Assembly (NCBI GenBank): GCA_964504715.1
Contig: CAZDEP010000001.1
Coordinates: forward strand, 16,830-80,829
Reading direction: 5' to 3'
Origin: an uncultured Candidatus Saccharibacteria bacterium
GTDB lineage: Bacteria > Patescibacteriota > Doudnabacteria > UBA920
Length of the DNA: 64,000 bases
Shown: positions 6,944 to 46,911 of the stretch, piece after piece
Numbering within the stretch: position 1 is the stretch's first letter
Layout of the letters: each line of letters opens with the position of its first letter
The notes under the pieces: generated by a model
What the model was told of the DNA's origin: nothing
Database searches by the model: none
The model's input: only the letters and a program-made list of their open reading frames with translations
Position numbers and translations under genes: made by a program

Positions 6944-6948
6944 AAATC

Positions 6949-8088: not shown

Positions 8089-8152
8089 GTTAGGGAGTAA
8101 AAATTTGGAATTTATTTAGGCATTAGGCCAGTTGGGAATTTTAGTCAAAGTA

Positions 8153-8173
8153 TTGAACTATCCATGGTATAAT
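8153..8173 (+). promoter_or_regulatory. Sigma70-like promoter (TTGAAC -35 and extended -10 TGGTATAAT) upstream of the PrgI-like gene
   Basis: ttgaac-tatccatgg-tataat about 25 nt upstream of the start codon at 8198 (spacer short, call driven by the extended -10). Confidence 0.45.
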
Positions 8174-8197
8174 TACATATATAGAGTAAGCGCATAA

Positions 8198-8650
8198 ATG
8201 CAATATCCGGTACCACAATTCACCGATGTAGAGGACAAGCTCATAGGGCCTTTGGGCGCTAAGCAGTTTTTTATTGTTTTCGCAGCGGGCATCCTTATTT
8301 TTGCCGGATATTCCGCCACCAAAAGCATAGTAGCTCTCATTTTGCTGATTGTAATTTTCGGCTTGCCGGCTTTGGGTCTGGCGTTTGCCAAAATCAACGG
8401 CAGGCCCGCTTACAGGCAGCTTGGCTTTTTAATGTCTTTTTTTACCGCGCCCAAAAAACTGATTTTCCATAAAGAAGCGGTAAATTTTTCCCAAGAGACC
8501 AAAATGAAGGACATAAAGCTGGAAACGCAAGATACGGGGCCGGTTGAATCAAAAGAAACCACCCAGCAAAGGCTAAAAACAGTCCAGGAGCTATTAAGGA
8601 AACAGCAGGAAGAGGAAGAGATGCTTATTGACAAAATTGACCATAATTAA
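8198..8650 (+). CDS. PrgI-family (VirB3-analogous) small membrane protein of Gram-positive-type T4SS
   Basis: N-terminus VPQFTDVEDKLIGPLGAKQFFIVFAAGILIF matches the PrgI consensus (vp.di..EDKi.GPLtlRQf), followed by two TM helices. It sits directly upstream of VirB4, as in conjugation operons. Confidence 0.6.
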   Translation: MQYPVPQFTDVEDKLIGPLGAKQFFIVFAAGILIFAGYSATKSIVALILLIVIFGLPALGLAFAKINGRPAYRQLGFLMSFFTAPKKLIFHKEAVNFSQETKMKDIKLETQDTGPVESKETTQQRLKTVQELLRKQQEEEEMLIDKIDHN

Positions 8651-8744
8651 AAAATTGACAAAATTATGAAGCAGAAAATTAAGTCCTAAAGCAAAAAGCA
8701 ATTTTGTCATTTATGTCAATTTTTTAAATTTTGTCAATATTTAT

Positions 8745-9431
8745 ATGGAAATGGAAAAGAAAAACAAAACCGCGGTAAAAAGCACCCAAAGTTTTTTGCG
8801 CCTCAGTGAAATAAAAAACGACACCGTGGTGGTGGACGACGGCACTTTAAGGGCCATAATTGCGGTTTCGTCCACAAATTTTGACTTAAAAAGCCAGGAC
8901 GAACAGGAAGCAATAATTTTTAATTACCAAAGATTTTTAAATTCCCTGGAGTTCCCGGTCCAAATTTTAATGCAGAGCCGCAAAATGGAAGTGGGGGCCT
9001 ACGTGGAAAAGCTCAAAAAGCTTTCGGAAAAGCAGACTAACGAGCTGTTAAGGGTGCAGACGGTGGAATATACGGAATTCATAAGCCGGCTAATAGAAAA
9101 CGCCAGCATTATGAACAAGAATTTTTATGTCATAGTGCCTTTGGGAAAAAGCATAACACCAAGCCCGGCTGGGATTTTTAGCCGGATATTTTTGGGCGGA
9201 AAAAGCAAGGAGGCCGCCGAAAGGATACAAAATTTTGAAAAAAACAGCGAAGAGCTTTCAACGAGGGTTGTTGCCGCCATTGGCGGGCTTTCCCAGGTGG
9301 GCCTAAAGGCTGTCCGCTTAAGGACGGAGGAAATTATCCAGCTTTATTATAATTCCTATAATTTTGAAAGCGGCCCCGTTATTGACCCTAAAAGCTTGGC
9401 CGAGATAAAACTGGCTGAGCCACAAAAATGA
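8745..9431 (+). CDS. virB4: VirB4/TrbE-family ATPase, N-terminal fragment (aa 1 to about 228); the rest of the gene resumes at 9921 after an inserted element
   Basis: TVVVDDGTLRAIIAVSSTNFDLKSQDEQEAIIFNYQRFLNSLEFPVQILMQSRKMEV is the canonical VirB4/CagE N-terminal motif (lkdGslraiievsginfdL.seeEqe.ii..fq.fLnsLdfpiQi...sr). The ORF stops about 20 bp before the element's left TIR. Confidence 0.65.
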   Translation: MEMEKKNKTAVKSTQSFLRLSEIKNDTVVVDDGTLRAIIAVSSTNFDLKSQDEQEAIIFNYQRFLNSLEFPVQILMQSRKMEVGAYVEKLKKLSEKQTNELLRVQTVEYTEFISRLIENASIMNKNFYVIVPLGKSITPSPAGIFSRIFLGGKSKEAAERIQNFEKNSEELSTRVVAAIGGLSQVGLKAVRLRTEEIIQLYYNSYNFESGPVIDPKSLAEIKLAEPQK

Positions 9432-9450
9432 ATAGTGAAGTAAGAATTAT

Positions 9451-9910
9451 TCAGATCTGCAGATGGGCGGATTTTACAGATACCTACAGATTTTAAAAGA
9501 TAAAGCTTATGGAAAAAAATGAATTCCTGTACGGTGACGAGACTTATAAATTAAGGGGACTGCTTTTTTCTGTTCATAACGAACTTGGCAGGTTTGCCAA
9601 AGAAAAACAATATTGCGACAAAGCCGAGGAAAAGTTTATCATTAACCAGTGGCCACATGTTAGAGAACCCCAAATCGGAGATATTGGTGATAGACCGGAT
9701 TTTATAGTCTGGGACTTAATTGTTGTTGAGTTTAAAGCAAAACCGTATTCGCAACAATCAGATTTTGAGCAGGTGCAACGTTATTTGCAGCAGACTAAAT
9801 TGAAATTAGGCATACTGGTAAATTTTAGGGCAAAATATTTGAATCCCCAAAGAATTTTGAATATTAATCATCTGCAGGTATCTGTAAAATCTAAAGATCT
9901 GTAGATCGGA
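9451..9910 (+). mobile_element. Element of about 460 bp, bounded by ~33-bp terminal inverted repeats, carrying a GxxExxY-family ORF and inserted into the VirB4 gene
   Basis: Left end is acagatgggcggattttacagatacctacagat. Right end is atctgcaggtatctgtaaaatctaaagatctgtagatcgg, the reverse complement of the left end with a few mismatches. A cargo-less copy of the same ends abuts at 37296-37392. Confidence 0.6.
9509..9904 (+). CDS. GxxExxY-family protein (PD-(D/E)XK nuclease-like fold), cargo of the inserted element
   Basis: LLFSVHNELGRFAKEKQY resembles the family motif (..v..eLGpGflEsvYe..). The spacing here is GxxxxExxY, so the match is a variant. The ORF's C-terminal codons lie inside the right terminal inverted repeat. 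Confidence 0.5.
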   Translation: MEKNEFLYGDETYKLRGLLFSVHNELGRFAKEKQYCDKAEEKFIINQWPHVREPQIGDIGDRPDFIVWDLIVVEFKAKPYSQQSDFEQVQRYLQQTKLKLGILVNFRAKYLNPQRILNINHLQVSVKSKDL

Positions 9911-9920
9911 ATAAAATATC

Positions 9921-11765
9921 TTGAGTATTTTTAAAGCAAAAACCGAAGAAGAGTTGCAGGCCAAAAAAGCCCGGCTCGAGGAGATGGAGCAGGAAAGCAA
10001 TGCGGGCAGGCGGCTTAAGGAAGTGGAAAAAACTTACCGCGAAGGGCTGACGACTCTAAAAGATTTAATAGCGCCCGCGGCTTTGAATTTCCAGGGCTCC
10101 CATTTTGAGCTGAACGGAAAATTTGCCCGTACGTTTTTTGTGCTTGCGTACCCGCGTTTTTTGTCCAGCAATTGGCTGTCGTTTATTATAAACGCGGAAG
10201 GCGCGCTGGACGTTTCTATTTTTATTTACCCCATAAATTCGGAAACCATTTTAAAGAAGCTTAAATCCAAAGTCGGCGAAATTGGTTCGCAAATGGCCAT
10301 TAACCAGGAAAAAGGCATGGTCAGGGACCCTATGCTCGAAACCGCTTACAAAGACGTGGAGTCTTTGCGCGATTCGCTGGTGCAAGGCACGGAACGCTAT
10401 TTTAGGGTAGGAATTTATTTTACGGTTTACGCCGAAGATTTAAAGCAGCTGGAAGCATTTTCCACTTCGCTTGAGAGCTCTTTGGGTTCCAAATTAATTG
10501 TTACCAAGCGGGCAATAATGCAAACCCAAGCCGGCCTGAATTCCTCTTTGCCTTTGGGGTTGGACGAACTTGATGTCGGCAATAACATGAATACCGGGCC
10601 ACTTTCCACGACTTTTCCGTTTGTGTCTTCGGACGTAACTTCCAACGACGGCATATTGTACGGCATTAACCGCCATAACAACAGCTTAATTTTGTTTGAC
10701 CGGTTTGCCATGGAAAACGCCAACAGCGTGGTTTTTGCCAAGTCCGGCGCCGGCAAATCTTACGCCATTAAGCTGGAAATTTTAAGGAGCTTAATGGTGG
10801 GCACGGAGGTCATAGTTATTGACCCGGAAAACGAGTACAAACATTTGGCCGAAGCCGTGGGCGGCACCTATTTAAACGTTTCTTTAAACAGCAACTCCCG
10901 AATCAATCCTTTTGATATTCCCGTGGGCCTGGAGGGCGAGGACAATACCGACATTATGCGCACCGCCGTGGTAAACCTTTTGGGGTTGGCGAATTTGATG
11001 GTCGGGAAATTAAATCCGACCGAAGAAGCGCTTTTGGACAAGGCCATTTGGCAAACCTATGCCAAAAAAGACATAACCCCCGAGCTGGCGGATTTTAAGA
11101 GCATTGAACCTCCGACCATGAACGACCTTTTGGAAATTTTGGCCGGCACGGTGGGCGCGGAGAATTTGGCCCAGCGGTTTTCTAAATTCACGGAAGGCAC
11201 TTTTGCGGGACTGTTTAACCAGCCGACCAATGTGGTTTTAAACAACTTGCTGGTGGTTTTTTCCATTAGGGATTTGGAAGAAGAATTGAGGCCCATCGCC
11301 ATGTATATAATCCTAAATTATATATGGAATATTGTCAGAAGCGAATTAAAAAGAAGGATTATGGTAATTGACGAAGCCTGGATCCTTATGCAGCACGAGG
11401 ACAGCGCCCGTTTCCTGTTTGGCATAGCCAAAAGGGCCCGCAAATATTATTTGGGCCTGACAACCATTACGCAAGATGTGGTGGATTTCATGAACAGCCC
11501 TTACGGCAAGCCGATTGTTACTAACTCTTCCATCCAATTGCTTTTAAAACAGTCACCGGCTGCCATTAACGTAATTGCCGAAACTTTCTTTTTAACCGAA
11601 GGCGAAAAATACCTGCTTTTGGAAAGCGAAGTGGGCGAGGGGATTTTCTTTGCGGGCAACAAGCACGCGGCAATTAAAATTTATGCCTCCTACGTCGAAG
11701 ACCAAATTATAACCACGGACCCGAAGCAGTTATTAGAGATAAAAGAAAGCCAGGAAACAGTTTAA
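9921..11765 (+). CDS. virB4: VirB4/TrbE-family T4SS ATPase, remaining ~614 aa: middle domain plus C-terminal AAA+ ATPase
   Basis: LKDLIAPAALNFQGSHFELNGKFARTFFVLAYPRFLSSNWLSFIINAEGALDVSIFIYP matches the VirB4 middle-domain consensus. Walker A is FAKSGAGKSYAIK, Walker B is RIMVIDEAW. The track's first codon is TTG. Confidence 0.85.
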   Translation: MSIFKAKTEEELQAKKARLEEMEQESNAGRRLKEVEKTYREGLTTLKDLIAPAALNFQGSHFELNGKFARTFFVLAYPRFLSSNWLSFIINAEGALDVSIFIYPINSETILKKLKSKVGEIGSQMAINQEKGMVRDPMLETAYKDVESLRDSLVQGTERYFRVGIYFTVYAEDLKQLEAFSTSLESSLGSKLIVTKRAIMQTQAGLNSSLPLGLDELDVGNNMNTGPLSTTFPFVSSDVTSNDGILYGINRHNNSLILFDRFAMENANSVVFAKSGAGKSYAIKLEILRSLMVGTEVIVIDPENEYKHLAEAVGGTYLNVSLNSNSRINPFDIPVGLEGEDNTDIMRTAVVNLLGLANLMVGKLNPTEEALLDKAIWQTYAKKDITPELADFKSIEPPTMNDLLEILAGTVGAENLAQRFSKFTEGTFAGLFNQPTNVVLNNLLVVFSIRDLEEELRPIAMYIILNYIWNIVRSELKRRIMVIDEAWILMQHEDSARFLFGIAKRARKYYLGLTTITQDVVDFMNSPYGKPIVTNSSIQLLLKQSPAAINVIAETFFLTEGEKYLLLESEVGEGIFFAGNKHAAIKIYASYVEDQIITTDPKQLLEIKESQETV

Positions 11766-11770
11766 TTCTA

Positions 11771-11860
11771 TTGACATAATTGACAAAATTTAAATAATTG
11801 ACAAGATTGGGATTCGAAATTTTGCTCAATTTTGTTCAATTATGTCATTTTTGTCAATTT
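11771..11860. promoter_or_regulatory. Dyad-symmetric array of TTGACA-like repeats (about 3 forward, 4 reverse) upstream of the 970-aa gene
   Basis: ttgacataattgacaaaatttaaataattgacaag ... tttgctcaattttgttcaattatgtcatttttgtcaattttt. Similar arrays are at 8655-8740, 55519-55560 and 60705-60750. Confidence 0.45.
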
Positions 11861-11864
11861 TTTT

Positions 11865-37798: not shown

Positions 37799-39286
37799 AT
37801 GACTTTTGAATTTTTATCTCTAACTGACTTACGCAAGCTTTTAGACACCAAACAGGTTTCGTCTGTCGAACTGACGAAATATTTTTTGGAGCGCATAAAA
37901 AAGTATGACAAGGAACTCAATTCCTTCATTACCGTTTGCGAAGAGGAGGCCCTTAAGCAGGCCAAGGACGCTGATGATTTTATAAATAGTCCCGGAGAAA
38001 ATCCTTTTCTTTGCGGGATTCCGTATGCGGCCAAAGACCTGTTCTGCACCAACGGAATACGCACCACCGCAGCTTCCAAAATTTTAGATAACTACATACC
38101 GCCCTACGATTCGACCGTCATTGCCAAATTAAAAGAGCAAAAGGCCGTATTGGTCGGCAAAACCAATTTGGACCAGTTTGCACACGGGTCTTCGGGCGAA
38201 ACGTCCGCTTACGGCCCGACCAAAAACCCCTGGGATAAAACCCGCATGCCGGGCGGTTCTTCTTCGGGCTCGGCTTCCGCCGTTGCGGCGGGCCTGGTGC
38301 CATGGGCCACGGCCACAGAAACCGGCGGCAGCATCCGCCAGCCGGCATCCTTAACCGGGCTTTCCGGCTGGAAACCCACCTACGGCCGAGTAAGCCGCTA
38401 CGGCGTTGTGGCCATGGGTTCATCGCTCGATTCAATTGGCGCCATGGCGGGGAGCGTGGAGGAATTGGCCTATTTGGCAGAATTTATGTCGGGTCGAGAT
38501 GAAAAAGATTCCACCACAGGTCCTACTGAAGTTCCGCGTTATGCATCTTTGCTGTCAAAAGATATTAAGGGCCTGAAAGTTGGGATCCCGAAGGAATATT
38601 TTGTGGAAGGCATGGAGGCGGACGTAAAAGCGCGGGTGTTTGAAGCCATAAAAGAATTGGAAAAACTGGGCGCTAAACTTTACGACGTAAGTTTGCCCAA
38701 CACCAAATACGGTTCTTTGGTTTACGCCATAGTCTGTCCGTCCGAGGTCTCTTCCAATTTAATGCGCTACGACGGCATTCGTTTTGGTTATACATCGAAA
38801 GAAGCAAAAAATTTAATGGAAGTTTACGCCAAAAGCCGGGCGGAAGGTTTTGGCAATGAAGCCAAAAGGCGGATTATGACGGGCACGTACGTTCTTTCCG
38901 CCGGGTATTTTGACGCCTACTATAAAAAGGCGCAAAAAGTTAGAAGGCTGATAGTCAATGAATTCGAAGAAGTTTTTAAAACTGTGGATGTGCTGGCCTG
39001 CCCGTCTTCCCCAAACGTGGCTTCGACTTTAGGCAAGGCGGCGGAAAATCCGCTGCACGGCTACATTGCCGACCAGTTGAACATTCCGGGCAGCTTGGCC
39101 GGCTTGCCTGCGCTTTCGGTCCCGTGCGGTTTTGGCAAACCCAGCGAGGGTGCTTCGCCCTCCATGGACGGCCTGCCCGTGGGCTTACAAATTATTGGCC
39201 CGCAGTGGGGGGAGCAAACGGTATTTAACGTCGGCCACGCGTATCAAAGCGTGACGGATTGGCATAAGAAACACCCCTCAATTTAG
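37799..39286 (+). CDS. gatA: Asp/Glu-tRNA amidotransferase subunit A (amidase signature family)
   Basis: Amidase signature GGSSSGSASAVAAG with catalytic Ser-cisSer-Lys context (KDLFCT...GGSSGGS). Confidence 0.9.
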   Translation: MTFEFLSLTDLRKLLDTKQVSSVELTKYFLERIKKYDKELNSFITVCEEEALKQAKDADDFINSPGENPFLCGIPYAAKDLFCTNGIRTTAASKILDNYIPPYDSTVIAKLKEQKAVLVGKTNLDQFAHGSSGETSAYGPTKNPWDKTRMPGGSSSGSASAVAAGLVPWATATETGGSIRQPASLTGLSGWKPTYGRVSRYGVVAMGSSLDSIGAMAGSVEELAYLAEFMSGRDEKDSTTGPTEVPRYASLLSKDIKGLKVGIPKEYFVEGMEADVKARVFEAIKELEKLGAKLYDVSLPNTKYGSLVYAIVCPSEVSSNLMRYDGIRFGYTSKEAKNLMEVYAKSRAEGFGNEAKRRIMTGTYVLSAGYFDAYYKKAQKVRRLIVNEFEEVFKTVDVLACPSSPNVASTLGKAAENPLHGYIADQLNIPGSLAGLPALSVPCGFGKPSEGASPSMDGLPVGLQIIGPQWGEQTVFNVGHAYQSVTDWHKKHPSI

Positions 39287-39311
39287 AATTATGAAGTAAG
39301 AATTAAGAATT

Positions 39312-39842
39312 ATGGACGAAATCAGAGAATTAATATTGAGAGGAGAAACCTTTCCTGCTAAGCAGGAAGTTGTTTTTGCTCCTGATTATATTTTAGATGT
39401 TGATCAGGAAACTGAGAAAGTCTTAAATCAATACCATAAAATTGGAGTAGACGCCACTAATTTAGTAGCATTAGTTGATGAACCTTTTACTCCAGAAGAG
39501 TATCGGGATGGAAAAAAGACATTGTTGTTAAAAGAAATTCCTGTAATTTCCCCAAAAGCAAGGATTCAGGAATTGGAAAATTATAGAAAGCGTTACAGGG
39601 GAATGTATGATGAAAGGAATGAAAGTTCGGGTATTTTCGTAAACATTGCTGGTACTCGGATTAAATCTCGAAAAGAAAACCCAAGAGAAGTTATGATTTT
39701 TGATTTTATTAGAACATCTAAAGGGGTGGTTGAGTGTCAGTGTTATAAATTGTTAGAAGAAGGACGTTTGAACAACGCCTTTTCTCATAGCATTAATTTT
39801 CCATATAATAGGGAATCGCTCCATGTTTATAATATGGATTAA
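39312..39842 (+). CDS. Hypothetical protein inserted between gatA and gatB
   Basis: 176-aa intact ORF with no motif; it interrupts the otherwise canonical gatCAB operon. Confidence 0.35.
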   Translation: MDEIRELILRGETFPAKQEVVFAPDYILDVDQETEKVLNQYHKIGVDATNLVALVDEPFTPEEYRDGKKTLLLKEIPVISPKARIQELENYRKRYRGMYDERNESSGIFVNIAGTRIKSRKENPREVMIFDFIRTSKGVVECQCYKLLEEGRLNNAFSHSINFPYNRESLHVYNMD

Positions 39843-39848
39843 ATAACT

Positions 39849-41441
39849 ATGAAATCTTTTCCCATATCAACCGAATACAAACCCGTAATTGGTTTTGAAA
39901 TTCACGTCCAGCTGAATACGAAGTCCAAAATGTTTGGGCGGGCGGCGAATAATCCGGACCAGAGCGTGCCGAATACGGACATAGACGAGGTCAATACCGG
40001 CCAGCCGGGGACTTTGCCTGTGGCAAACAAGGAAGCCATCCGCTTGGCCGCCATGGTGGGTTTGGCTTTGAATTGCACAATTGACGAGTGGAGCAAGTTT
40101 GACCGCAAACACTATTTTTATCCCGATTTGCCGAAAGGCTACCAAATTTCGCAGTACGACCAACCGATATCTAAGAATGGGTGGTTGGATGTTGCTGTGC
40201 CTGTCATTGCGAGGAGGAATGCATCTGACGACGAAGCAATCTTACCCCAGGAACAGATTGCTTCGGCCAGTCAAGGATCTGGCCTCGCAATGACAAAAAC
40301 TAAAAGAATCGGCATCACCCGTGCTCATTTAGAAGAAGATGCCGGGAAAAACGTGCATCCCGAGGGCTTGAATTATTCTTTGGTGGATTACAACCGCGCG
40401 GGCGCGCCCTTGCTCGAAATTGTTACGGAGCCGGAAATAGAAAGCGGCGAAGAAGCCAAGGCCTTTTTAACCGAGCTTAGAAATATTATCCGCTATTTGG
40501 GCGCATCGAGCTGCGACATGGAAAAAGGCACCATGCGCGTGGAGCCGAACATTAGCGTGCGAAAGCCCGGCGAAACCACGTTGCCGAAATACAAAGTGGA
40601 AGTTAAGAACATCAACTCCATTAAATTCGCCCAAGCCGCTATAGACTACGAAATTGCGCGGCAAACGGAAATATTAAAAGAGAACGGCGTGCCGAAGCAG
40701 GTGACCATGGGCTGGAATGAAAAGGAAAACAAAACGGTGGAGCAGAGGAGTAAGGAAGAGGCCAATGACTACCGCTACTTCCCGGACCCGGACTTGCCCG
40801 TGTTGCAGTTTACCAAAGCCTATTTGGACGATCTTCGTAATAAAATGCCGGAACTGCCCGCGCAAAAGCGCGAGCGATTTATGAGCGAATACAATTTGCC
40901 TGCGGCAGATGTGGAAAATTTAATAAACTGGAAAGAGCTGGCCGCATTTTTTGAAGATGTGGTGAGCGAGATTCAGGAGTGGAAATTAGTAGATATTGGG
41001 GGAAATTGGGATATTAATGGCACAATAAAACTGGCTGTCAATTGGTGTTTGGGCGAGTTTAGCGCGAATTTGAATCAAAATCATATAAACCCCCAAGACT
41101 CACGTGTGGACGCCGAGAATTTTGCCGAACTTTTGAAAATGATCCAGAAAGGCGAAATTTCCGGCAGTGCCGCCAAACAAGTTTTTAAAGTCATGTTTGA
41201 AAAGGGTGGCGATCCATCTAACATTGTAGAAGACCTAGGCCTTTCGCAAGTGAGCGACGAGTCGGCAATTTCTTCGGCAATCGACACTGTAATATCTAAT
41301 AACCCGAAAGCCGTAGCCGACTTTAAAGCCGGTGAGCAAAAAAGTTTTGGTTTCCTTGTGGGCCAAGCCATGAAAGAACTGAAAGGCAAGGGGAATCCGC
41401 AGGTGATAAACCAGCTTCTTAAAAAGAAGCTGGAGTATTAA
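39849..41441 (+). CDS. gatB: Asp/Glu-tRNA amidotransferase subunit B, containing a 32-codon in-frame insertion
   Basis: FQISQYDQPISKNGW ... KRIGITRAHLEEDAGK ... plus a C-terminal YqeY-like domain. The insertion lies between NGWLDVAV and KTKRIGITR (B. subtilis has only GG there, as recalled from memory). Confidence 0.9.
   Translation: MKSFPISTEYKPVIGFEIHVQLNTKSKMFGRAANNPDQSVPNTDIDEVNTGQPGTLPVANKEAIRLAAMVGLALNCTIDEWSKFDRKHYFYPDLPKGYQISQYDQPISKNGWLDVAVPVIARRNASDDEAILPQEQIASASQGSGLAMTKTKRIGITRAHLEEDAGKNVHPEGLNYSLVDYNRAGAPLLEIVTEPEIESGEEAKAFLTELRNIIRYLGASSCDMEKGTMRVEPNISVRKPGETTLPKYKVEVKNINSIKFAQAAIDYEIARQTEILKENGVPKQVTMGWNEKENKTVEQRSKEEANDYRYFPDPDLPVLQFTKAYLDDLRNKMPELPAQKRERFMSEYNLPAADVENLINWKELAAFFEDVVSEIQEWKLVDIGGNWDINGTIKLAVNWCLGEFSANLNQNHINPQDSRVDAENFAELLKMIQKGEISGSAAKQVFKVMFEKGGDPSNIVEDLGLSQVSDESAISSAIDTVISNNPKAVADFKAGEQKSFGFLVGQAMKELKGKGNPQVINQLLKKKLEY
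40201..40296. repeat. 96-bp palindromic MITE-like element inserted in-frame in gatB
   Basis: Arms tgtcattgcgagg / cctcgcaatgaca; inner arms cgacgaagcaatc / gattgcttcgg. A second copy of the same family lies intergenic at 42977-43083. Confidence 0.65.
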
Positions 41442-41458
41442 GTATTAGGTATTATGCT

Positions 41459-41497
41459 AAAGGCTCAACCTAAGGTTGAGCCTTTAGATTTTTTTAT
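41459..41497 (+). terminator. Rho-independent terminator of gatB
   Basis: aaaggctcaacc-taa-ggttgagccttt followed by agatttttttat. Confidence 0.75.
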
Positions 41498-41940
41498 ATA
41501 GCATGATTTTGTTTCAATGTACTAGTACGGTAATGAAAATTGAATAATGAAGTAAAAATAATGAATTAAAAAGCAAAAAAAGGCACCGCCGACTGGTAAA
41601 ACTGTCGGCGGTGTTTTGAAAACCTCCCTCATTAGCGGAGGTGTTTCCCCGAGCGGGGAAACTCCGAACCCCCGAGACTGGGGGAGTGGGAGGGGGGCGG
41701 AGAAGGAACTTTGGTTATTCCTCCTCCATGACATATCATCTTGGTGTCCTCTTGTGGTTTCTTTTTTTCCCCTGGGGGTTGTGTAAACCCTGGGGGCGCG
41801 AAATCGGGGTTATCAGTGCTGTCACACATGCCTAAAAGTTTAAAATATTTTTTTGTTTTTTTCAAGAGGTTATATTTTTTTGTTAATATTGTTCTCGACA
41901 AGCTCGAACAATATGGGGGCGTGTATTTTTGCAAACATAA

Positions 41941-41985
41941 AAAGGCGGTGTGTGATTGGATCTCTCCAACACCCACCGCCTTTTG
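41941..41985 (-). terminator. Hairpin terminator just downstream of the PEP-CTERM gene
   Basis: aaaaggcggtgtgtg ... acacccaccgcctttt is an imperfect stem with an A/T-run on both sides (bidirectional). Confidence 0.5.
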
Positions 41986-42006
41986 AGATGTAATGCGAAA
42001 CTTCGT

Positions 42007-42660
42007 CTACTTCCTCCGCCGGCGAACGACGGCCATACCCACGAGCCCGGAGCCCAGAAGGGCCCACGTCCCCGGCTCGGGGACGTCGGAGAACTTCGTC
42101 TCCAAACTGAGATTGTCCCATCCCACGGGGCCCTCGCCACCTGAGGACTCGTAAACTCGGCTGCTGCGGGGATCGTCCCCACCAGCAGCGAACGCCACGA
42201 AGGCGTCCACCGAGGTGTTGAGTGTGATGTCTAGTACCAGTACCTGTTCTGGGCTGCTGACGACATAGGGGTTCGTAAGGTAAAAGTGCAAATCGAACCC
42301 CTCCTCGTCACGATTGGCCCCCGGGCTAAAAATCATCGGGCTATTGTAAACTACCCGATAATCCGTCCCCAGGTTAGTCCCAAAGCCCAAAGTTTGCCCT
42401 GTAGCCGTTCCCAAACCTATAGTTGCATCCAGAAGGTAGGGGTCCGAAGTGTAGAATAAATCATCGAGACTCCTAAAGGAGATCTCGCTGATGCGGAAAC
42501 CCGCTGGGATCCCCGTATAGAACTGCTGGTAACGCGCATTCTGCGCGTACCAGCTGAACGGAAAAACGTTGTTGGCGTCGGTGCCACCGATGGTGATTGT
42601 TGAGCCGCTGGCCGAGAAGGCCAAGGCTAAAAACAGAACGAGAAGAGTAAAGTTTCGCAT
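42007..42660 (-). CDS. Secreted PEP-CTERM sorting-domain protein; the gene is GC-rich, roughly 58% against about 44% for its surroundings
   Basis: Signal peptide MRNFTLLVLFLALAFSASGS. C-terminal VPEPGTWALLGSGLVGMAVVRRRRK, that is PEP motif + TM helix + Arg-rich tail. The codon composition is clearly different from neighbouring genes. Confidence 0.6.
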   Translation of the reverse strand: MRNFTLLVLFLALAFSASGSTITIGGTDANNVFPFSWYAQNARYQQFYTGIPAGFRISEISFRSLDDLFYTSDPYLLDATIGLGTATGQTLGFGTNLGTDYRVVYNSPMIFSPGANRDEEGFDLHFYLTNPYVVSSPEQVLVLDITLNTSVDAFVAFAAGGDDPRSSRVYESSGGEGPVGWDNLSLETKFSDVPEPGTWALLGSGLVGMAVVRRRRK

Positions 42661-42976
42661 GATTTTCCCTCCTGCGAATTTGTAGGCGTCGCGGTCTAGT
42701 AGGTGCGGGCGCCAGAAGGTGCTTGGCTTTAAGGCTTTTTAGGCCTTTTTGCTCGCAAATGCGGGCAAAAGTTACTTTTAGAGCCATTTTTAAGTAACCT
42801 ATAATTATATCATAAATTAATAATTTTGTCAATAGTAAAACCTCTTATTTTAGGGGTATTTTCTAAGATTTTAATGAAATTAAGTAATGAAAAAACCATT
42901 TAAAAACCCCTGTCTGGAATAAATCCTTGCAAGGGGTTAGTAATCTATTTAAAATTTAAAATCACCCTATTTTTTT

Positions 42977-43083
42977 CTGTGTCATTGCGAGGAGACAGGG
43001 CCTAGTCTGTCGACGAAGCAATCTAGCAGTTGGGTTTATGTGAAAGATTGCTTCGGTCGTCTAACTCCCTCGCAATGACACAA
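42977..43083. repeat. Intergenic copy of the palindromic MITE-like element found in gatB
   Basis: ctgtgtcattgcgagg ... cgacgaagcaatc ... gattgcttcggtcg ... cctcgcaatgacacaa. Confidence 0.65.
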
Positions 43084-43110
43084 ATAATAAAATGCATAAA
43101 ACATGGCAAT

Positions 43111-44136
43111 TTATTTATTCAACCACTTTCTTATTTCCTGAATTGGCGGGCGGGAGGGGCTTGATATCCAACGAATATTTTTATTCCTTTTCCACCATGT
43201 CATTTGCCGTTTGCTGTAGTGCTTAATCGCAAAAGAAAGCTGGGACACCATAGCATCGTAAGAAATTTTATTTTGAAGATACAGGGAGACAAAACGGTAT
43301 TCCAAACCGAACTGTTCAAGGCGTTTCCAGGTAAGACCATAACCGCCCCTAACCCCTCCTTTGAAAGGAGGGGAATGCAGACTCTTAACTTCTTGGATCA
43401 TACCCGCCTTAAGGCGCGCTTTTAGCCGCTTGTCGATTTTTTTATATAAATCAGCCTGGGGGATTTTTATGCCGAGCCATAGGACTTGGTTTAAGGGATC
43501 CTTCGACTCACCCTCGAGGCCGTCGGGTTCGCTCAGGATGGCGGAGCGTGGCGGAACCGGTTTGCCTGTGGTTAAAATAATTTCCAGCGCGCGAATGAGC
43601 CGTCGTTTGTTATGGCGGTCAATGGTTTTAGCCCTGGCCGGATCGAGTCGGCTAATTCCGGCGAATAAGCCGGTGGTGGAAAGTTTTTCCAGTTTCGCGC
43701 GAAGTTTTAGGTTGGGCTTTACGTCCGGCAGATTTTGGCCGTAAACCACGGCGTCTATCCAGTGGCCGGTGCCGCCGCAGAGAATGGGTAGCTTGCCGCG
43801 GCTCACGATATCATCAACTATTTTTTTTGCCCGGCTTTTAAAAAGCGCAACTGAAAATTGCCTGTGTGGATCAACAAAGTCAATTAAATGGTGGGGGATG
43901 GATTTGTAGACATACACATAATCCGAATGATCCGAATGCTGCAATCCGAATGATCCAAAAGGGGAGTGTTGCCATTGGCCTTCAATTTTCCCTGTGCCTA
44001 AGTCCATACCTTTGTAAATTTGCCGGCTGTCTACGGAAATTATTTCGCCATTAAAACGCTTGGCCAGCTTGACGGCCAATTCGGATTTGCCCGAGGAAGT
44101 GGGGCCGACAATAATTAATAGCTTGTAGGGAGTCAT
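43111..44136 (-). CDS. miaA: tRNA dimethylallyltransferase MiaA
   Basis: P-loop IIVGPTSSGKSELAVKLA, then SVDSRQIYKGMDLGTGK, then PHHLIDFVDP. It carries an in-frame palindrome (43354-43374) and a 3x tandem repeat (43905-43950). Confidence 0.85.
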   Translation of the reverse strand: MTPYKLLIIVGPTSSGKSELAVKLAKRFNGEIISVDSRQIYKGMDLGTGKIEGQWQHSPFGSFGLQHSDHSDYVYVYKSIPHHLIDFVDPHRQFSVALFKSRAKKIVDDIVSRGKLPILCGGTGHWIDAVVYGQNLPDVKPNLKLRAKLEKLSTTGLFAGISRLDPARAKTIDRHNKRRLIRALEIILTTGKPVPPRSAILSEPDGLEGESKDPLNQVLWLGIKIPQADLYKKIDKRLKARLKAGMIQEVKSLHSPPFKGGVRGGYGLTWKRLEQFGLEYRFVSLYLQNKISYDAMVSQLSFAIKHYSKRQMTWWKRNKNIRWISSPSRPPIQEIRKWLNK

Positions 44137-44301
44137 AAAAAAGAAGCAGAAGGAAACACATAGGACCTATAATTTTTTTCCGGCGTGCGGGCTTGGGCGT
44201 TTTAAAGCCGCGCCGTGGATTTTCATCCGGGGGCGCTTTTTTATTTCTCGTTTTTTTGATTTGGTCGGATATTCGTCCAAAATTTTTTTCTTCATAGGTT
44301 T

Positions 44302-44312
44302 TATGGTATAAT
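44302..44312 (+). promoter_or_regulatory. Extended -10-like TATGGTATAAT upstream of the 44347 gene
   Basis: tatggtataat lies about 35 nt upstream of the ATG. Confidence 0.4.
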
Positions 44313-44346
44313 TATTGTATCTTAACTTTAATTTTTTGGAAAATAT

Positions 44347-44904
44347 ATGAAAAAATCAGCCTTATTTATTGTAGTGTTGTTGGTTTTACTCGGAGGTTAC
44401 TATTTGTACGATAAAAATAGCAAATATGCGATGGCGCCAATAGAAAGCGAGGACCAACTTCGCGACCAATCCGGGCAAAAAGAAGATGCCCCGGAGCAGC
44501 CCGGGAGCCAGGCTTCGGGCACGCCTTCTCAGGCTCCGACGGGAAACCCGCAAGCCGCTACGGGCGCCGGCACGGAAGTAAGCGGGCATTTTTCCACGGG
44601 GGAGGAATTGGAAGGGCCGGACATTTTGGTGGTGGAAGTCGCTTATGACGGACAAAATTTTAGTCCCCAAACCGTTTCCGTAAAAGTTGGGGACATTGTG
44701 ATTTTCCGCAATAATTCCGGCAAAGATTTTTGGCCGGCGTCAGGCTCGCACCCGACCCATACTGCTTATCCGGAATTCGATGCCAAAACGGCAATTGCGC
44801 CGAAAGGCAAATTCCAGTTTAAATTTGAAAAGGCGGGACAGTGGGCTTATCACGACCATTTGAATCCTTCGGCAACCGGCGTGATAAATGTGAGCGCGAA
44901 ATAG
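44347..44904 (+). CDS. Secreted cupredoxin-fold-like protein (putative; no Cys ligand seen)
   Basis: Signal/TM anchor, then a low-complexity linker, then a ~100-aa beta-rich domain (VKVGDIVIFRNNSGKDFWP ... AYHDHLNP) that resembles a cupredoxin/EfeO-type fold but lacks the canonical Cys. Confidence 0.35.
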   Translation: MKKSALFIVVLLVLLGGYYLYDKNSKYAMAPIESEDQLRDQSGQKEDAPEQPGSQASGTPSQAPTGNPQAATGAGTEVSGHFSTGEELEGPDILVVEVAYDGQNFSPQTVSVKVGDIVIFRNNSGKDFWPASGSHPTHTAYPEFDAKTAIAPKGKFQFKFEKAGQWAYHDHLNPSATGVINVSAK

Positions 44905-45039
44905 CACTACAGAAAATATCCGGGTATTTTCACAGCTTTCGGATCTTGTAAAATTATAGGACCAATCGGACGAATAAGACTAATGGGTTGTATACGACTG
45001 ATAGTGCATATAAGACCAATAAGACAGGTAGCAAGCATA

Positions 45040-45761
45040 TGACAGACAGCCATCAATATATAAAAAACATTCTTGACCGGCAAATACAGACGGGGCATTT
45101 TCCTCATGCGTATTTATTTGTCGGGCCCAAAGGCTCGGGCAAAAAAACCATGGCAATTGATTTGGCCAAGAAACTTTTGGGCACGGAGAATTTAGCGGTG
45201 CATCCGGATTTTTCGGAATTTAGCGCGGAGGCTGGAGCCTCGGCCGAATCGGTGCGGGAATTTACCATTAGGATGGGCATGAAGCCGTTTGTGGCCAAAC
45301 TCAAATTTGCGCTGGTGGGTAATATGGAGAACCTCACAAGCCAAGGCGCCAACGCGCTTTTAAAGACTTTGGAGGAGCCGCCCGAAAATACGGTTATGGT
45401 CCTAACAGCGAATTTGAGGAGGGTTTTGCCGACAATTTTTTCCCGGTGCCAGGTATTTAATTTTAATAGGCGCGGATCACGCGCGGATTCTAACGCGGAT
45501 TACCCGCTGAAGGATCTTAAAATCAGCGATTATGCTGGCAAGAGTTTGGCCGAAAAGCTTTTGGCAATAAATACATTTGCAGATTTGGAAGAAATGGAGT
45601 TAAGGCAGAGCATTGAAGATTTTATTTACCAAACGGCGGAAACGTTGTCGACATTGCCCCACAAGTATACGCAGCTGGCCGCGGGCCTTAAGGCCTACGA
45701 AGATTTGGACACAAATAAAAATAGAAAATTAATTTTGCAGGGGTTAATGGTAAAAATATAA
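45040..45761 (+). CDS. holB: DNA polymerase III delta' subunit (HolB-like clamp-loader subunit)
   Basis: GHFPHAYLFVGPKGSGKKT (P-loop-like), LLKTLEEPPENTVMVLTA, and SRC motif TIFSRCQVF. The ATG at 45040 is preferred over the track start. Confidence 0.75.
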
Positions 45762-45767
45762 CAGGGC

Positions 45768-45850
45768 TCTCTACGAACTACGAACTGAGTGCGAACTTAC
45801 GAACATCCCGTTTCGTATATTTCGTAAAAAGTTCGTAGTTCGTAGAAAAA
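45768..45850. repeat. About 83-bp structured repeat, copy A (outer 15-bp arms ctacgaactacgaac / gttcgtagttcgtag); it is the inverted partner of copy B
   Basis: tctctacgaactacgaac-tgagtgcgaacttacgaacatcccgtttcgtatatttcgtaaaaa-gttcgtagttcgtag. The reverse complement of the inner 45 bp is found exactly in copy B. Confidence 0.7.
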
Positions 45851-45855
45851 TTTAT

Positions 45856-46911
45856 ATGAAAAACAAAATAATCTTCCTTTCCCTTATTTTTTTAGCGGCT
45901 TCGTGCAACCCGTTTAAGCAGCCGCAAATTGCCGGCGTGGCCAAATCAACGAACGGCGGCGTGGACTGGCAAGCCGCCAACGCCACCAAGGAAAATTTGG
46001 GTTCAGTGGCGGGAGTCAATGTCGCCAAAATGGATTTCGACCCCCAGAACCGCGAAGTGGTGTATGTGTCGGGGTTTAACGACGGTCTTTATAAATCAAC
46101 AGATTCGGCCGGCACTTGGGAAAGGATATTGAGCAATATTTGGGTGTTTGATTTTGCCATAGACCCTTTTGATAGCAAAATTATATACGCCGGCGGTTAT
46201 TTTGGGGACAAGGGCAGCTTGGTTAAAACCCGCGACGGGGGGAAAAGTTGGGAGGAAATTTACAGCGAAGCGACGCCGCAGGTTTCGGTAAGGGGCGTGG
46301 CAATAAACCCCATTAACACCAACCAAATTGTCATAGGCACGAGCGCGGGCGGAGTTATAAAATCCAACGACGGCGGTTTGACCTGGAAGCTGGTGAAAAA
46401 TTTCGGTGAAAGGGTAAACAGGGTCTATTGGCAGAACGGGCAGGTCTACGCTTTGGTGAGGAGCAAGGGCTTGTTTAAGTCCACCAATTTGGACAGCGGG
46501 GAATTTTCCGACCTGACTTTGAGCCTGACCAAAAGCGATAATTTTTACCAAAACTTCATTGGCATAAACGATCAAAGCTTTAACCAGGCCTATATAGACA
46601 CACTGGCCCCCGGACTGATATATTTAACAGCAGGGAAAGGGTTTTTTAAAACCGTAAACGAGGGGCAAACATGGCAGAAGTTGGCGTTGCCGGGAAATTA
46701 TGACGTAAATTTGCCTGCCCGCCCGGTTGCGGTTTATAAACAATCAAGCAATATTGTAATGGTAGGCATTGGCAATGTGGTTTACAGGTCGGCCGACGGG
46801 GGCACAACCTGGCAAACGCAAAAAGTCAATTCTTTGGGTTTTGTAAATTATATATTAATCGACCCGCAGCTTTCCCAGATTGTTTATGCTGGGAATTTTG
46901 TATCACAATAA
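45856..46911 (+). CDS. BNR/Asp-box repeat lipoprotein (sialidase-like beta-propeller fold without obvious catalytic residues)
   Basis: Lipoprotein signal LSLIFLAASCNP. There are five S/T-x-D-x-G-x-T/S-W Asp-box motifs: STDSAGTW, TRDGGKSW, SNDGGLTW, VNEGQTW, SADGGTTW. Confidence 0.6.
   Translation: MKNKIIFLSLIFLAASCNPFKQPQIAGVAKSTNGGVDWQAANATKENLGSVAGVNVAKMDFDPQNREVVYVSGFNDGLYKSTDSAGTWERILSNIWVFDFAIDPFDSKIIYAGGYFGDKGSLVKTRDGGKSWEEIYSEATPQVSVRGVAINPINTNQIVIGTSAGGVIKSNDGGLTWKLVKNFGERVNRVYWQNGQVYALVRSKGLFKSTNLDSGEFSDLTLSLTKSDNFYQNFIGINDQSFNQAYIDTLAPGLIYLTAGKGFFKTVNEGQTWQKLALPGNYDVNLPARPVAVYKQSSNIVMVGIGNVVYRSADGGTTWQTQKVNSLGFVNYILIDPQLSQIVYAGNFVSQ

What the first reader, a model, noticed from the sequence alone, without database searches (positions are those of the whole stretch)
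41580..42720. GC-rich island encoding a PEP-CTERM protein, flanked by a structured G-rich noncoding tract
From about 41580 to 42700 the GC content jumps to roughly 58% against about 44% around it. The segment encodes a 217-aa secreted protein ending in a textbook PEP-CTERM sorting signal (VPEPGTWALLGSGLVGMAVVRRRRK). That signal normally requires an exosortase and is typical of diderm bacteria, so its presence here is unexpected. It could be horizontal acquisition, an assembly chimera or contaminant, or evidence of an exosortase-like system in this organism. The palindromic MITE at 42977-43083 lies next to the island border.
Basis: partly seen in the sequence, partly recalled or inferred. Interest (0 to 1): 0.6.

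Follow-up and report, generated by a model that had tools for sequence, protein, structure and literature searches.

The report
PEP-CTERM surface protein gene in CPR bacterium
A genuine, lineage-conserved gene for a secreted surface protein carrying a PEP-CTERM sorting tail sits in the genome of a Candidatus Doudnabacteria-like (CPR) bacterium, a group thought to lack the outer membrane this signal has always been tied to; it is not an assembly error, and the "noncoding G-rich tract" beside it is a second small gene.

Summary
The 217-aa protein (42007..42660, minus strand) and its tail VPEPGTWALLGSGLVGMAVVRRRRK are confirmed. The tail passes the curated PEP-CTERM cut-offs. The GC rise is real but smaller than stated: 53.1% for 41580-42720 and 56.6% for the CDS, against 45.2% for the window. 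It is two GC-rich patches separated by a 35% GC spacer. Amino-acid composition and codon choice each explain about half of the CDS excess.

Chimera and contaminant are rejected. Other assemblies reproduce both junctions at 100% identity. A 72%-identical orthologue occupies the same gatB-miaA slot in related metagenome contigs.

GatB's nearest named relatives are Candidatus Doudnabacteria and Patescibacteria. In more distant relatives the same slot holds two unrelated cargo domains (259 aa, 202 aa). These keep a PEP-CTERM tail, a near-consensus sigma-70 promoter and a similarly built 5' leader. PEP is invariant in all nine CPR-context proteins.

The "G-rich noncoding tract" is a conserved 65-aa minus-strand ORF with its own promoter and terminator.

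No exosortase lies in the 64 kb. The rest of the genome could not be searched, so whether the tail is processed or only anchors the protein remains open. Verdict: a real PEP-CTERM protein in an unexpected lineage.

The parts
42007..42660 (-). CDS of the 217-aa PEP-CTERM protein. It has a signal-peptide-like N-terminus (aa 1 to about 20), a roughly 170-aa all-beta sandwich domain and a C-terminal sorting tail.
   Evidence: ORF. HMM hits. AF2 model with pLDDT 85.5 and pTM 0.79: helix 2-15, 12 strands over 21-191, helix 196-216. Family profile finds 2928 cluster representatives at E<=1e-3.
42010..42084 (-). PEP-CTERM sorting tail (aa 193-217): VPEP motif, hydrophobic helix GTWALLGSGLVGMAVV and basic end RRRRK.
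   Evidence: TIGR02595 matches residues 193-217 at 28.7 bits against a cut-off of 16. PF07589 scores 30.2 against 20.7. PEP is invariant in nine CPR-context proteins, while the tail DNA is only 56-77% identical.
42804..42832 (-). Sigma-70-type promoter TTGACA-17-TATAAT, 12 of 12 consensus positions, with TG before the -10 box.
   Evidence: The same promoter is conserved in L003, L005, L027, L019 and L030 (TTGACA-17-TATAAT), with -10 variants in L026 (TATCTT) and L032 (TATACT).
42661..42797 (-). Conserved 5' leader of about 137 nt (start inferred). It has a 5'-proximal hairpin P1 beginning GGUUA, hairpin P2 flanked by a U-run and an A-run, hairpin P3, and an anti-SD CCUUCU (42714-42719) able to pair with the SD AGGAGG (about 42667-42673).
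   Evidence: Alignment and RNAalifold. Single-sequence folds of eight leaders show the SD paired in all. P2 occurs as five different sequences, all base-paired. The leader is more conserved than the CDS. The energy z-score is only -0.54, so the structure rests on covariation, not stability.
41940..41984 (-). Intrinsic terminator of the PEP-CTERM gene: hairpin followed by UUUUUAUGUUU.
   Evidence: Inverted repeat I3. Fold -28.1 kcal/mol, z = -5.65. Conserved in L003, L005 and L027.
41884..41913 (.). Palindrome AATATTGTTCGAG-CTTG(T)-CGAGAACAATAT just upstream of the small ORF's promoter. It looks like an operator site.
   Evidence: Sequence. One copy in the window. An identical core is found in L001-L005 and L027, all of which carry the small ORF.
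41837..41865 (-). Promoter-like site TTGAAA-17-TAAACT for the small ORF.
   Evidence: 9 of 12 positions. The surrounding sequence is nearly identical in L003, L005 and L027.
41632..41829 (-). Conserved small ORF of 65 aa: MCDSTDNPDFAPP...MICHGGGITK...SLGGSEFPRSGKHLR.
   Evidence: Orthologues in L003 (76 aa), L027 (65 aa) and L005 (partial). Window against L027 shows 21 synonymous and 15 non-synonymous codon differences, with differences by codon position of 10/8/29. Indels are in frame and the stop codons are swapped. No Pfam, NCBIfam or PADLOC family. Its GC is fully explained by amino-acid composition.
41572..41620 (-). Intrinsic terminator of the small ORF: a 10-bp GC stem followed by CCUUUUUUUGCUUUUU.
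   Evidence: Fold -19.8 kcal/mol, z = -4.17. Conserved in L003 and L027.
41457..41487 (+). Intrinsic terminator of the convergent gatB gene. It marks the edge of the unit.
42970..43090 (.). Palindromic MITE-like element between miaA and the PEP promoter. It neighbours the unit but is not part of it.
   Evidence: Inverted repeat I1. Fold -51.2 kcal/mol, z = -8.57. Absent from the orthologous spacer of L003. A second copy lies in gatB.

Best explanation
The region holds two real, independently transcribed minus-strand genes in the conserved gatB-miaA slot of a Candidatus Doudnabacteria-like (CPR/Patescibacteria) chromosome.

Gene 1 (42007..42660) encodes a small surface protein. It has a Sec-type signal peptide, a roughly 170-aa beta-sandwich (jelly-roll, carbohydrate- or receptor-binding-like) domain and a canonical PEP-CTERM tail.

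Shown:
- The gene is read from a consensus sigma-70 promoter.
- Transcription passes through a conserved structured leader whose anti-SD can occlude the ribosome-binding site.
- It ends at its own terminator.

Inferred:
- The protein is exported and its signal peptide is removed.
- The C-terminal helix plus RRRRK holds it in the cytoplasmic membrane with the beta-sandwich outside.
- PEP has stayed invariant through deep divergence and through replacement of the cargo domain. The tail is therefore most likely recognised by an exosortase/archaeosortase-family enzyme encoded elsewhere in the genome (my estimate about 0.5-0.6). That enzyme would cleave at PEP and re-anchor the protein, as archaeosortase A does with PGF-CTERM proteins in single-membrane archaea.
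- If no such enzyme exists, the tail simply acts as a C-terminal membrane anchor.

The high GC is a property of the gene, not a scar of recent transfer or misassembly. It comes from Gly/Ala/Pro/Arg-rich composition plus GC3-rich codons, the same direction of bias seen in RRF, L1, NusG and ClpB.

The family itself is widespread in diderm bacteria. It was probably acquired by an ancestor of this Doudnabacteria clade long ago.

Gene 2 (41632..41829) is a conserved 65-aa protein of unknown function.
For: Identity of the protein:
-.
- Fold.

Not an artefact:
- L001 (Logan assembly of SRR14271345) is 100% identical over 1951 nt spanning both borders. L002 comes from SRR14271340.
- Orthologues lie in the same slot in ENA contigs L003 and L004, from other projects.

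Divergence in step with the neighbours:
- PEP 72.4% aa identity; GatA 90%, GatB 84%, MiaA 79%, HolB 64%, orf185 62%.

Host:
- The best named GatB relatives are Candidatus Doudnabacteria and Patescibacteria group.
- The window carries VirB6-like, TraG/VirB4-like and lysozyme-like T4SS-type genes.

Slot conservation with cargo swap:
- L019 carries a 259-aa protein and L032 a 202-aa protein. Both pass TIGR02595, and hhalign aligns only the tails.
- L016 and L017 lack such a gene.

Selection on the signal:
- PEP is invariant in 9 of 9 CPR-context proteins, while tail DNA identity is 56-77%.

Expression signals:
-.

GC decomposition:
- Expected 51.8% under host codon usage against 56.8% observed.
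- The GC3 excess of +0.114 is the largest of 51 genes. The next largest belong to LemA, MreC, RRF, ClpB, L1 and NusG.
- Orthologues keep 52-59% GC against 36-49% in their flanks.

Family breadth and diderm relatives:
- 2928 representatives.
- P0006 lies in a contig that also carries LpxI.

Small ORF coding:
-.
Against: - No exosortase/EpsH-like gene was found in the 64-kb window. The only ORF with more than 4 predicted TM segments is TrbL/VirB6-like. Only part of the window's ORFs were scanned by HMM, and the rest of the genome could not be searched.
- Only one PEP-CTERM protein lies in the window. Exosortase-positive genomes typically have many, with a median of 8 (PMC1569441).
- Host taxonomy rests on GatB similarity and gene content, not on rRNA or a marker-gene tree.
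- Signal-peptide cleavage, the transcription start and leader function are inferred, not measured.
- The leader's folding energy is no better than shuffled sequence (z = -0.54). Covariation rests on eight or nine sequences, partly aligned by hand.
- L001 and L002 may come from the same sampling project as the source assembly, so they are independent assemblies but perhaps not independent samples.
Confidence: 0.75

Rival explanations
1. Assembly chimera or contaminant: a fragment from a GC-richer diderm organism was joined into a CPR contig.
For: The CDS GC is in the top 0.2% of same-length windows. PEP-CTERM is otherwise known from diderms.
Against: - Both junctions are reproduced at 100% identity by Logan assemblies of two runs.
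- A 72% orthologue with the same flanking genes appears in contigs from other projects.
- The promoter, leader and terminators are AT-rich like the host and conserved with the gene.
- The GC-rich stretch is interrupted by a 35% GC spacer.
Confidence: 0.02
2. Recent horizontally acquired island: the gene arrived recently from a high-GC donor and has not yet ameliorated. It may be non-functional in this host.
For: - GC3 is 0.68 against 0.47-0.59 for other genes.
- The family is abundant outside CPR, and the closest non-CPR relative is from an LpxI-bearing organism.
- The slot is empty of PEP-CTERM genes in L016 and L017.
Against: - Orthologues down to 49-54% identity all sit in CPR-like contexts and all keep the GC excess.
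- Divergence matches that of neighbouring housekeeping genes.
- Relatives with only 74-81% GatB identity already carry PEP-CTERM genes in the same slot.
- The ORF is intact, with a consensus promoter and strong SD.
- Half of the GC excess is due to amino-acid composition.
- An ancient transfer is compatible with the data; a recent one is not.
Confidence: 0.08
3. No sorting enzyme: the lineage has no exosortase. The PEP-CTERM tail serves only as a stop-transfer C-terminal membrane anchor for a surface-exposed beta-sandwich protein.
For: - No exosortase lies in 64 kb.
- Only one PEP-CTERM gene lies in the window.
- CPR genomes are small and are proposed to lack an outer membrane.
- The helix plus RRRRK is sufficient for anchoring.
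Against: - PEP is invariant in 9 of 9 CPR-context proteins, across three unrelated cargo domains. The rest of the tail and its DNA drift freely. That is hard to explain if only hydrophobicity and charge mattered.
- The window is less than about 10% of a roughly 1-Mb genome, so absence here says little.
Confidence: 0.35
4. The G-rich tract 41580-41830 is a structured noncoding RNA.
For: Local hairpins I5 and I7. Weak sub-threshold Rfam hits such as ncS025 at 22 bits against a gathering score of 46.
Against: - No Rfam hit reaches threshold.
- Substitutions are concentrated at third codon positions (10/8/29).
- There are 21 synonymous codon changes against L027, in-frame indels, conserved N- and C-terminal peptides and a TAA-to-TGA swap.
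- A GAG-to-GAA change keeps the codon but breaks the I7 hairpin (read from the sequences).
Confidence: 0.05

Closest known systems
PEP-CTERM / exosortase (EpsH, XrtA/XrtB) protein-sorting system (Haft 2006, PMC1569441)
   Same: N-terminal signal peptide, little-known cargo domain and a C-terminal PEP motif followed by a roughly 14-20-residue hydrophobic helix and a basic cluster. The tail passes the TIGR02595 and PF07589 cut-offs.
   Different: The host is a Doudnabacteria-like CPR bacterium, a group proposed to lack an outer membrane. All described PEP-CTERM hosts have one. No exosortase or EPS locus was seen in the window. Only one copy lies in 64 kb. The gene sits in a fixed housekeeping slot with its own sigma-70 promoter and leader, not in an EPS locus or under the sigma-54 PrsR/PrsK control described by Haft.
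Flocculation-associated PEP-CTERM protein PepA (NF033554) and related small PEP-CTERM families (NF038129, THxN NF038125)
   Same: Similar size and architecture. There is weak similarity over residues 77-217 to the C-terminal half of PepA (44.1 bits, E = 2e-11). Relatives give similar weak hits.
   Different: The score is far below the curated cut-off (44 against 80), and no other curated family cut-off is reached. The protein belongs to an uncurated family of about 2900 cluster representatives.
Archaeosortase A / PGF-CTERM lipid anchoring of surface proteins in Haloferax (PMC7157517, listed)
   Same: This is the working analogy. A tripartite C-terminal signal is processed by an exosortase-family enzyme in a cell with a single membrane, anchoring abundant surface proteins.
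   Different: The motif differs (PGF, not PEP) and the host is archaeal. No enzyme has been identified here. This is an analogy only, taken from my own knowledge of that system.
Rickettsia palindromic elements (RPE) inserted in frame in protein genes. This applies to the neighbouring MITE, not to the PEP gene.
   Same: A palindromic repeat with the same termini as the element at 42977-43083 is inserted in frame in gatB and translated.
   Different: Different sequence family and host. The comparison with RPEs is from memory.

Membership tests
PEP-CTERM sorting domain proteins (TIGR02595 / PF07589) | HMM score above the curated cut-off | tested here: met
   TIGR02595 scores 28.7 bits against a cut-off of 16. 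PF07589 scores 30.2 against 20.7.
PEP-CTERM sorting domain proteins (TIGR02595 / PF07589) | Tripartite tail at the extreme C-terminus: PEP motif, hydrophobic TM stretch, basic cluster | tested here: met
   VPEP-GTWALLGSGLVGMAVV-RRRRK followed by the stop codon. The model shows a helix over residues 196-216.
PEP-CTERM sorting domain proteins (TIGR02595 / PF07589) | N-terminal signal peptide | tested here: inconclusive
   MRNFTLLVLFLALAFSASGS has the expected n-, h- and c-region shape and is modelled as a helix over residues 2-15. No dedicated signal-peptide predictor was available.
PEP-CTERM / exosortase system | Co-occurrence with an EpsH/exosortase-family multi-pass membrane protein (8 or more TM helices) in the same genome | not testable with these tools
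   None was found in the 64-kb window. A hydropathy screen found one ORF with more than 4 TM segments, and it is TrbL/VirB6-like.
PEP-CTERM / exosortase system | Host has an inner membrane, periplasm and outer membrane, plus EPS genes (PMC1569441) | tested here: inconclusive
   GatB relatives are Doudnabacteria / Patescibacteria, a group proposed to lack an outer membrane (PMC12102498). No Lpx, Bam or EPS genes were seen among the window ORFs scanned. However, 64 kb cannot establish the envelope type.
PEP-CTERM / exosortase system | Multiple PEP-CTERM proteins per genome (median 8) | tested here: inconclusive
   One lies in the window. Related CPR contigs show members in other contexts, namely L031 next to a PilB-like ATPase and L030. 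Per-genome counts are unknown.
floc_PepA (NF033554) | Whole-protein score of at least 80 bits | tested here: not met
   44.1 bits, with a partial match of residues 77-217 to profile positions 155-261.
Known RNA families (Rfam 15), for the G-rich tract and the 5' leader | Score at or above the gathering threshold | tested here: not met
   Only three tRNAs in the window reach threshold. In 41400-43200 all hits are far below their thresholds.

The most novel reading that the evidence does not exclude
Doudnabacteria, although CPR bacteria without an outer membrane, run an exosortase/archaeosortase-type sorting pathway. It would anchor a highly expressed, rapidly diversifying major surface protein (adhesin or S-layer-like). 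The protein is encoded by a fixed 'cassette' in the gatB-miaA slot. The cargo domain of this cassette is repeatedly replaced, while the consensus promoter, a structured SD-occluding leader RNA and the PEP-CTERM tail are kept. This would be a bacterial single-membrane counterpart of archaeal ArtA/PGF-CTERM anchoring. It would extend PEP-CTERM biology beyond diderm bacteria.
Probability: 0.3. Interest if true: 0.75.

Novelty: new member of a known kind. Interest (0 to 1): 0.5.

Why it matters
PEP-CTERM/exosortase sorting has been defined by strict co-occurrence with an outer membrane and EPS loci. A PEP-CTERM gene that is stably inherited, strongly signalled for expression and under selection on the PEP motif in a CPR lineage challenges that. 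Either it shows the rule is not absolute, or it says something about the still poorly known CPR envelope. Surface proteins of CPR epibionts are the molecules most likely to mediate host attachment. This gives a concrete candidate and a concrete test: look for the enzyme. Full-text searches of the held library found no paper linking PEP-CTERM or exosortase to CPR.

Tried and rejected
- Genome-contig scan with the protein. It returned only tail-only matches in Proteobacteria, Acidobacteria and similar.
- Metagenome-contig scan with the leader pattern AAAGCCANGNACCTTCTGGCGC. All six hits were chance matches inside high-GC coding sequence. No new leaders were found.
- Third protein search with a 27-sequence profile. 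It gave 25 hits and no organism names, so the donor lineage could not be named.
- Rfam at gathering and E-value thresholds. Nothing was found for the tract or the leader.
- Covariance model R1 of the leader. It found no further copy in the window or in unrelated loci. It also failed to detect the divergent leaders of L030, L031 and L032, which were therefore compared by hand.
- PADLOC, Pfam and NCBIfam found no family for the small ORF or for the 176-aa ORF.
- The NCBI 176,879-bp source contig could not be retrieved through the look-up of encoding contigs, so walking out of the window to look for an exosortase was impossible.
- I considered cargo swapping by recent recombination at conserved flanks. 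I rejected it as a recent event because tail and signal-peptide DNA are only 56-83% identical.
Full report
**1. Observation**

It ends ...FSDVPEPGTWALLGSGLVGMAVVRRRRK. The tail scores 28.7 bits on TIGR02595 (cut-off 16) and 30.2 bits on PF07589 (cut-off 20.7).

Exact GC values:
- 45.2% for the window.
- 53.1% for 41580-42720, not about 58%.
- 56.6% for the CDS, with GC3 of 0.68.
- 55.4% for 41580-41830.
- 35.2% for the spacer 41831-42006.

So there are two GC-rich patches, not one island. The CDS is in the top 0.2% of 654-nt windows. A 300-nt window inside gatA (38150-38449, 63.3%) exceeds anything in the PEP gene.

**2. Not a chimera**

The exact protein is encoded on Logan contigs from two sequencing runs. 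L001 (8.5 kb, SRR14271345) is 100% identical to the window over 1951 nt spanning both borders, from miaA into gatB.

A 72%-identical orthologue lies between miaA and gatB on ENA contigs from other projects, L003 and L004. Its divergence falls inside the range of its neighbours: GatA 90%, GatB 84%, MiaA 79%, HolB 64%, orf185 62%. Its GC is equally raised, at 55.8% against 47%.

The same holds for every other member recovered:
- L005: 55.5%.
- L027: 52.3%.
- L026: 59.1%.
- L030: 57.7%.
- L031: 54.9%.

All have AT-richer flanks.

**3. Host**

The 120 best GatB relatives are 70-84% identical. Every one that carries an organism name is 'Candidatus Doudnabacteria bacterium' or 'Patescibacteria group bacterium'.

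The window also carries a TrbL/VirB6-like protein, a TraG/VirB4-like ATPase and a lysozyme-like protein. That gene set matches the T4SS described for Patescibacteria. [quoted passage not shown]

Haft et al. state that PEP-CTERM occurs only in bacteria with inner and outer membranes and EPS genes, and co-occurs with EpsH (PMC1569441). A 2023 preprint repeats this distribution and describes the enzyme as having eight or more TM helices. Full-text searches found no paper linking PEP-CTERM or exosortase with CPR.

**4. The slot**

I looked at the gatB-miaA interval in more distant relatives:
- L019 (GCA_964407965.1, GatB 81%) has a 259-aa protein with a signal-like N-terminus and the tail TPEPGTWALIGSVLVGLPFLRRFRRG.
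- L032 (GCA_964474825.1, a 1.2-Mb contig, GatB 74%) has a 202-aa protein ending TLTPEPSSLLLMGSGASCLLWLRRRKA. Its GC is 58% against 43.5% for the locus.
- L016 and L017 (GatB 79%) instead carry a Cys-rich small ORF of about 70 aa and no PEP-CTERM gene.

Both the 259-aa and the 202-aa proteins pass TIGR02595. Profile-profile comparison with the 217-aa family aligns only the tails.

Members of the 217-aa family also occur in other CPR-like contexts. L031 lies downstream of a PilB/GspE-like ATPase. L030 has a gatB 3' fragment upstream.

Across the nine CPR-context proteins PEP is invariant. The tails read VPEPGTW three times, then VPEPATW, TPEPAPW, VPEPASL, APEPGTF, TPEPGTW and TPEPSSL. Tail DNA is only 56-77% identical to the window's. 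That pattern indicates purifying selection on the motif itself. It is my main, indirect argument that a recognising enzyme exists.

**5. The protein family and fold**

A single-sequence search found only six relatives. A profile search of 1.84 billion cluster representatives found 2928 at E<=1e-3 and 917 at E<=1e-10. Most are 215-260 aa and cover the whole profile from signal peptide to tail. Some are giant proteins with several copies of the domain.

None reaches a curated NCBIfam cut-off other than the PEP-CTERM domain. Similarity to floc_PepA is weak: 44 bits for the window protein against a cut-off of 80.

The nearest relative with a non-CPR context (P0006, 26% identity) lies on contigs that also encode LpxI, that is, a lipid-A-making diderm.

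With a 23-sequence alignment AlphaFold2 gives pLDDT 85.5 and pTM 0.79. The model has an N-terminal helix (2-15), a 12-strand beta-sandwich (21-191) and a C-terminal helix (196-216). Foldseek against PDB gives only weak jelly-roll-type matches with TM <= 0.47. These include phage baseplate and tail-tip proteins, PHR domains, the furin P-domain and carbohydrate-binding modules. The fold is thus a generic binding-type beta-sandwich without a close solved relative.

**6. GC explained**

If the protein's amino acids were encoded with the window's average codon usage, the CDS would be 51.8% GC. The observed value is 56.8%. About half of the excess over typical genes (about 47-49%) is therefore amino-acid composition and half is codon choice.

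The GC3 excess of +0.114 is the largest of 51 genes. It goes in the same direction as LemA, MreC, RRF, ClpB, L1 and NusG, which show +0.07 to +0.08. Together with the consensus promoter and strong SD, this fits a highly expressed gene at least as well as a foreign one. This is inference.

**7. Expression signals**

A 12/12 sigma-70 promoter with an extended -10 lies at 42832..42804. It recurs, with minor -10 variants, upstream of all CPR members, including the two with unrelated cargo.

The leader of about 137 nt is more conserved than the CDS among the closer orthologues. RNAalifold predicts three hairpins, plus a helix pairing CCUUCU with the SD AGGAGG.

In single-sequence folds of eight leaders the SD is paired in all. 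Hairpin P2 exists in five different sequence versions, all base-paired. P1 always starts near a conserved GGUUA.

Several cautions apply:
- The window leader folds no better than shuffles (z = -0.54).
- The divergent leaders had to be aligned by hand.
- A covariance model found no further copies.
- A metagenome scan with a leader pattern found only chance matches.

I therefore treat the leader as a probable cis-acting element, acting through mRNA stabilisation by the 5' hairpin and/or translational control by SD occlusion. Its function is unproven.

The gene ends at a strong terminator at 41984..41940 (-28.1 kcal/mol, z = -5.65).

**8. The 'G-rich noncoding tract'**

On the minus strand, 41632..41829 is an ATG-initiated 65-aa ORF: MCDSTDNPDFAPPGFTQPPGEKKKPQEDTKMICHGGGITKVPSPPPSHSPSLGGSEFPRSGKHLR.

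Orthologues follow the PEP gene in L003 (76 aa), L027 (65 aa) and L005 (cut by the contig end). The evidence that it is coding:
- The N-terminus MCDS[ST]D[NS]PD[FY]AP and the C-terminus SLGGSEFPRSGKHLR are conserved.
- The middle differs by in-frame indels.
- The stop codon alternates between TAA and TGA.
- Window against L027 differs at 21 synonymous and 15 non-synonymous codons, with differences by codon position of 10/8/29.

Its GC equals the value expected from its amino acids.

Around the ORF:
- A promoter-like site lies at 41865..41837.
- A palindrome at 41884-41913 is conserved in all loci that carry the ORF.
- A terminator lies at 41620..41583 (-19.8 kcal/mol, z = -4.17).

No Pfam, NCBIfam, PADLOC or Rfam family matches. 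The ORF's function is unknown. It is absent from L019, L026 and L032, so it is not an obligate partner of the PEP-CTERM gene.

**9. Exosortase**

A hydropathy screen of 52 window ORFs found only one with more than four predicted TM segments. That is the 1090-aa protein, which is TrbL/VirB6-like by Pfam. No Exosortase_EpsH hit appeared among the ORFs scanned. Only one PEP-CTERM-type tail exists in the window in any frame.

The window is probably under a tenth of the genome, since a relative has a 1.2-Mb contig. I could not reach the rest. Presence or absence of the enzyme is therefore untested.

**10. Mechanism, with shown and inferred steps**

Shown:
- The gene is real and its position is conserved.
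- The domain layout and the HMM membership of the tail.
- The promoter and terminator motifs.
- Conservation of PEP across cargo replacement.

Inferred:
- Sec export and signal-peptide cleavage.
- Anchoring by the C-terminal helix with RRRRK on the cytoplasmic side.
- A surface-exposed beta-sandwich acting as a binding module.
- Cleavage at PEP by an exosortase-family enzyme and re-anchoring (probability about 0.5-0.6). The alternative is that the tail stays as a plain membrane anchor (about 0.35).
- An ancient origin of the family in this clade by transfer from diderm bacteria.

**11. Verdict**

This is a real, conserved PEP-CTERM protein gene in an unexpected host lineage, and therefore a new member of a known kind.
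- The chimera reading is refuted.
- The 'recent island' reading is not supported.
- The 'noncoding tract' is a small gene.
- Interest is moderate. It would rise sharply if an exosortase is found in these genomes, or if the leader proves regulatory.

Noticed in passing
window 40203-40294 (inside gatB 39849..41441): A second copy of the palindromic element (termini GTCATTGCGAGG / CCTCGCAATGAC) is inserted in frame in gatB at codon 119 and translated as VIARRNASDDEAILPQEQIASASQGSGLAMT. GatB relatives P0140 and P0112 have no insert there. P0073 and P0075 have other VIAR/VIAS...LAMT inserts, and P0070 has a different Pro/Gly-rich insert at the same loop. This is recurrent in-frame MITE insertion in an essential gene.
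   Followed up: partly
window 39312-39842 (+); L003 9242-9598; L017 1639-1899; L019 4897-5181; L032 7621-7998: The short gatA-gatB spacer is a variable slot. The window has a 176-aa ORF with no family hit. L003 has a 23S_rRNA_IVP gene, L017 and L019 have GIY-YIG genes, and L032 has an unrelated 125-aa ORF.
   Followed up: partly
window 41884-41913: A 12-nt-arm palindrome (ATATTGTTCGAG ... CGAGAACAATAT) lies immediately upstream of the small ORF's -35 box. It is identical in all loci carrying that ORF and looks like an operator. A degenerate version appears near gatB in L016 and L017.
   Followed up: partly
L016 8079-8294 (-) and the L017 spacer 3760-4351: Relatives without a PEP-CTERM gene carry a conserved small ORF of about 66-71 aa in the same slot. 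It has the motifs NRDEIMERFF and CxVPGCGYxLNxDGSCxGC (zinc-ribbon-like) and its own promoter-like sequence. No Pfam hit.
   Followed up: no
window 2036-14744: A cluster typical of the Patescibacteria T4SS: a TrbL/VirB6-like protein of 1090 aa (weak, 20.5 bits), a TraG/VirB4-like P-loop ATPase (9921..11765) and a 970-aa protein with a C-terminal lysozyme-like SLT_3 domain.
   Followed up: partly
L030 about 130-230: Upstream of the PEP-CTERM gene of P0190 lies a fragment of about 100 nt resembling the reverse complement of the gatB 3' end. This suggests a rearrangement or duplication of the slot in that organism.
   Followed up: no
window 38150-38449 (inside gatA): This is the highest 300-nt GC in the profiled stretch 38000-46000 (63.3%). 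It lies within an ordinary, well-conserved housekeeping gene, so short GC peaks are not confined to the PEP gene.
   Followed up: no
window 43111-44136 (miaA): MiaA contains odd-looking segments (SPFGSFGLQHSDHSDY, PPFKGGVRGGYG). Its length varies between 312 and 371 aa among relatives. These may be further in-frame repeat insertions.
   Followed up: no
P0192, P0195, P0196 (representative-library hits): The beta-sandwich domain of this family also occurs 4-10 times in tandem in giant proteins of about 2000-2500 aa, so it is a reusable surface-protein module.
   Followed up: no
window 42746-42771 (+ strand reading): Leader hairpin P2 is flanked by a U-run and an A-run. Read on the opposite strand it scores as an intrinsic terminator, so it could also stop antisense transcription entering the PEP gene's 5' end.
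   Followed up: no
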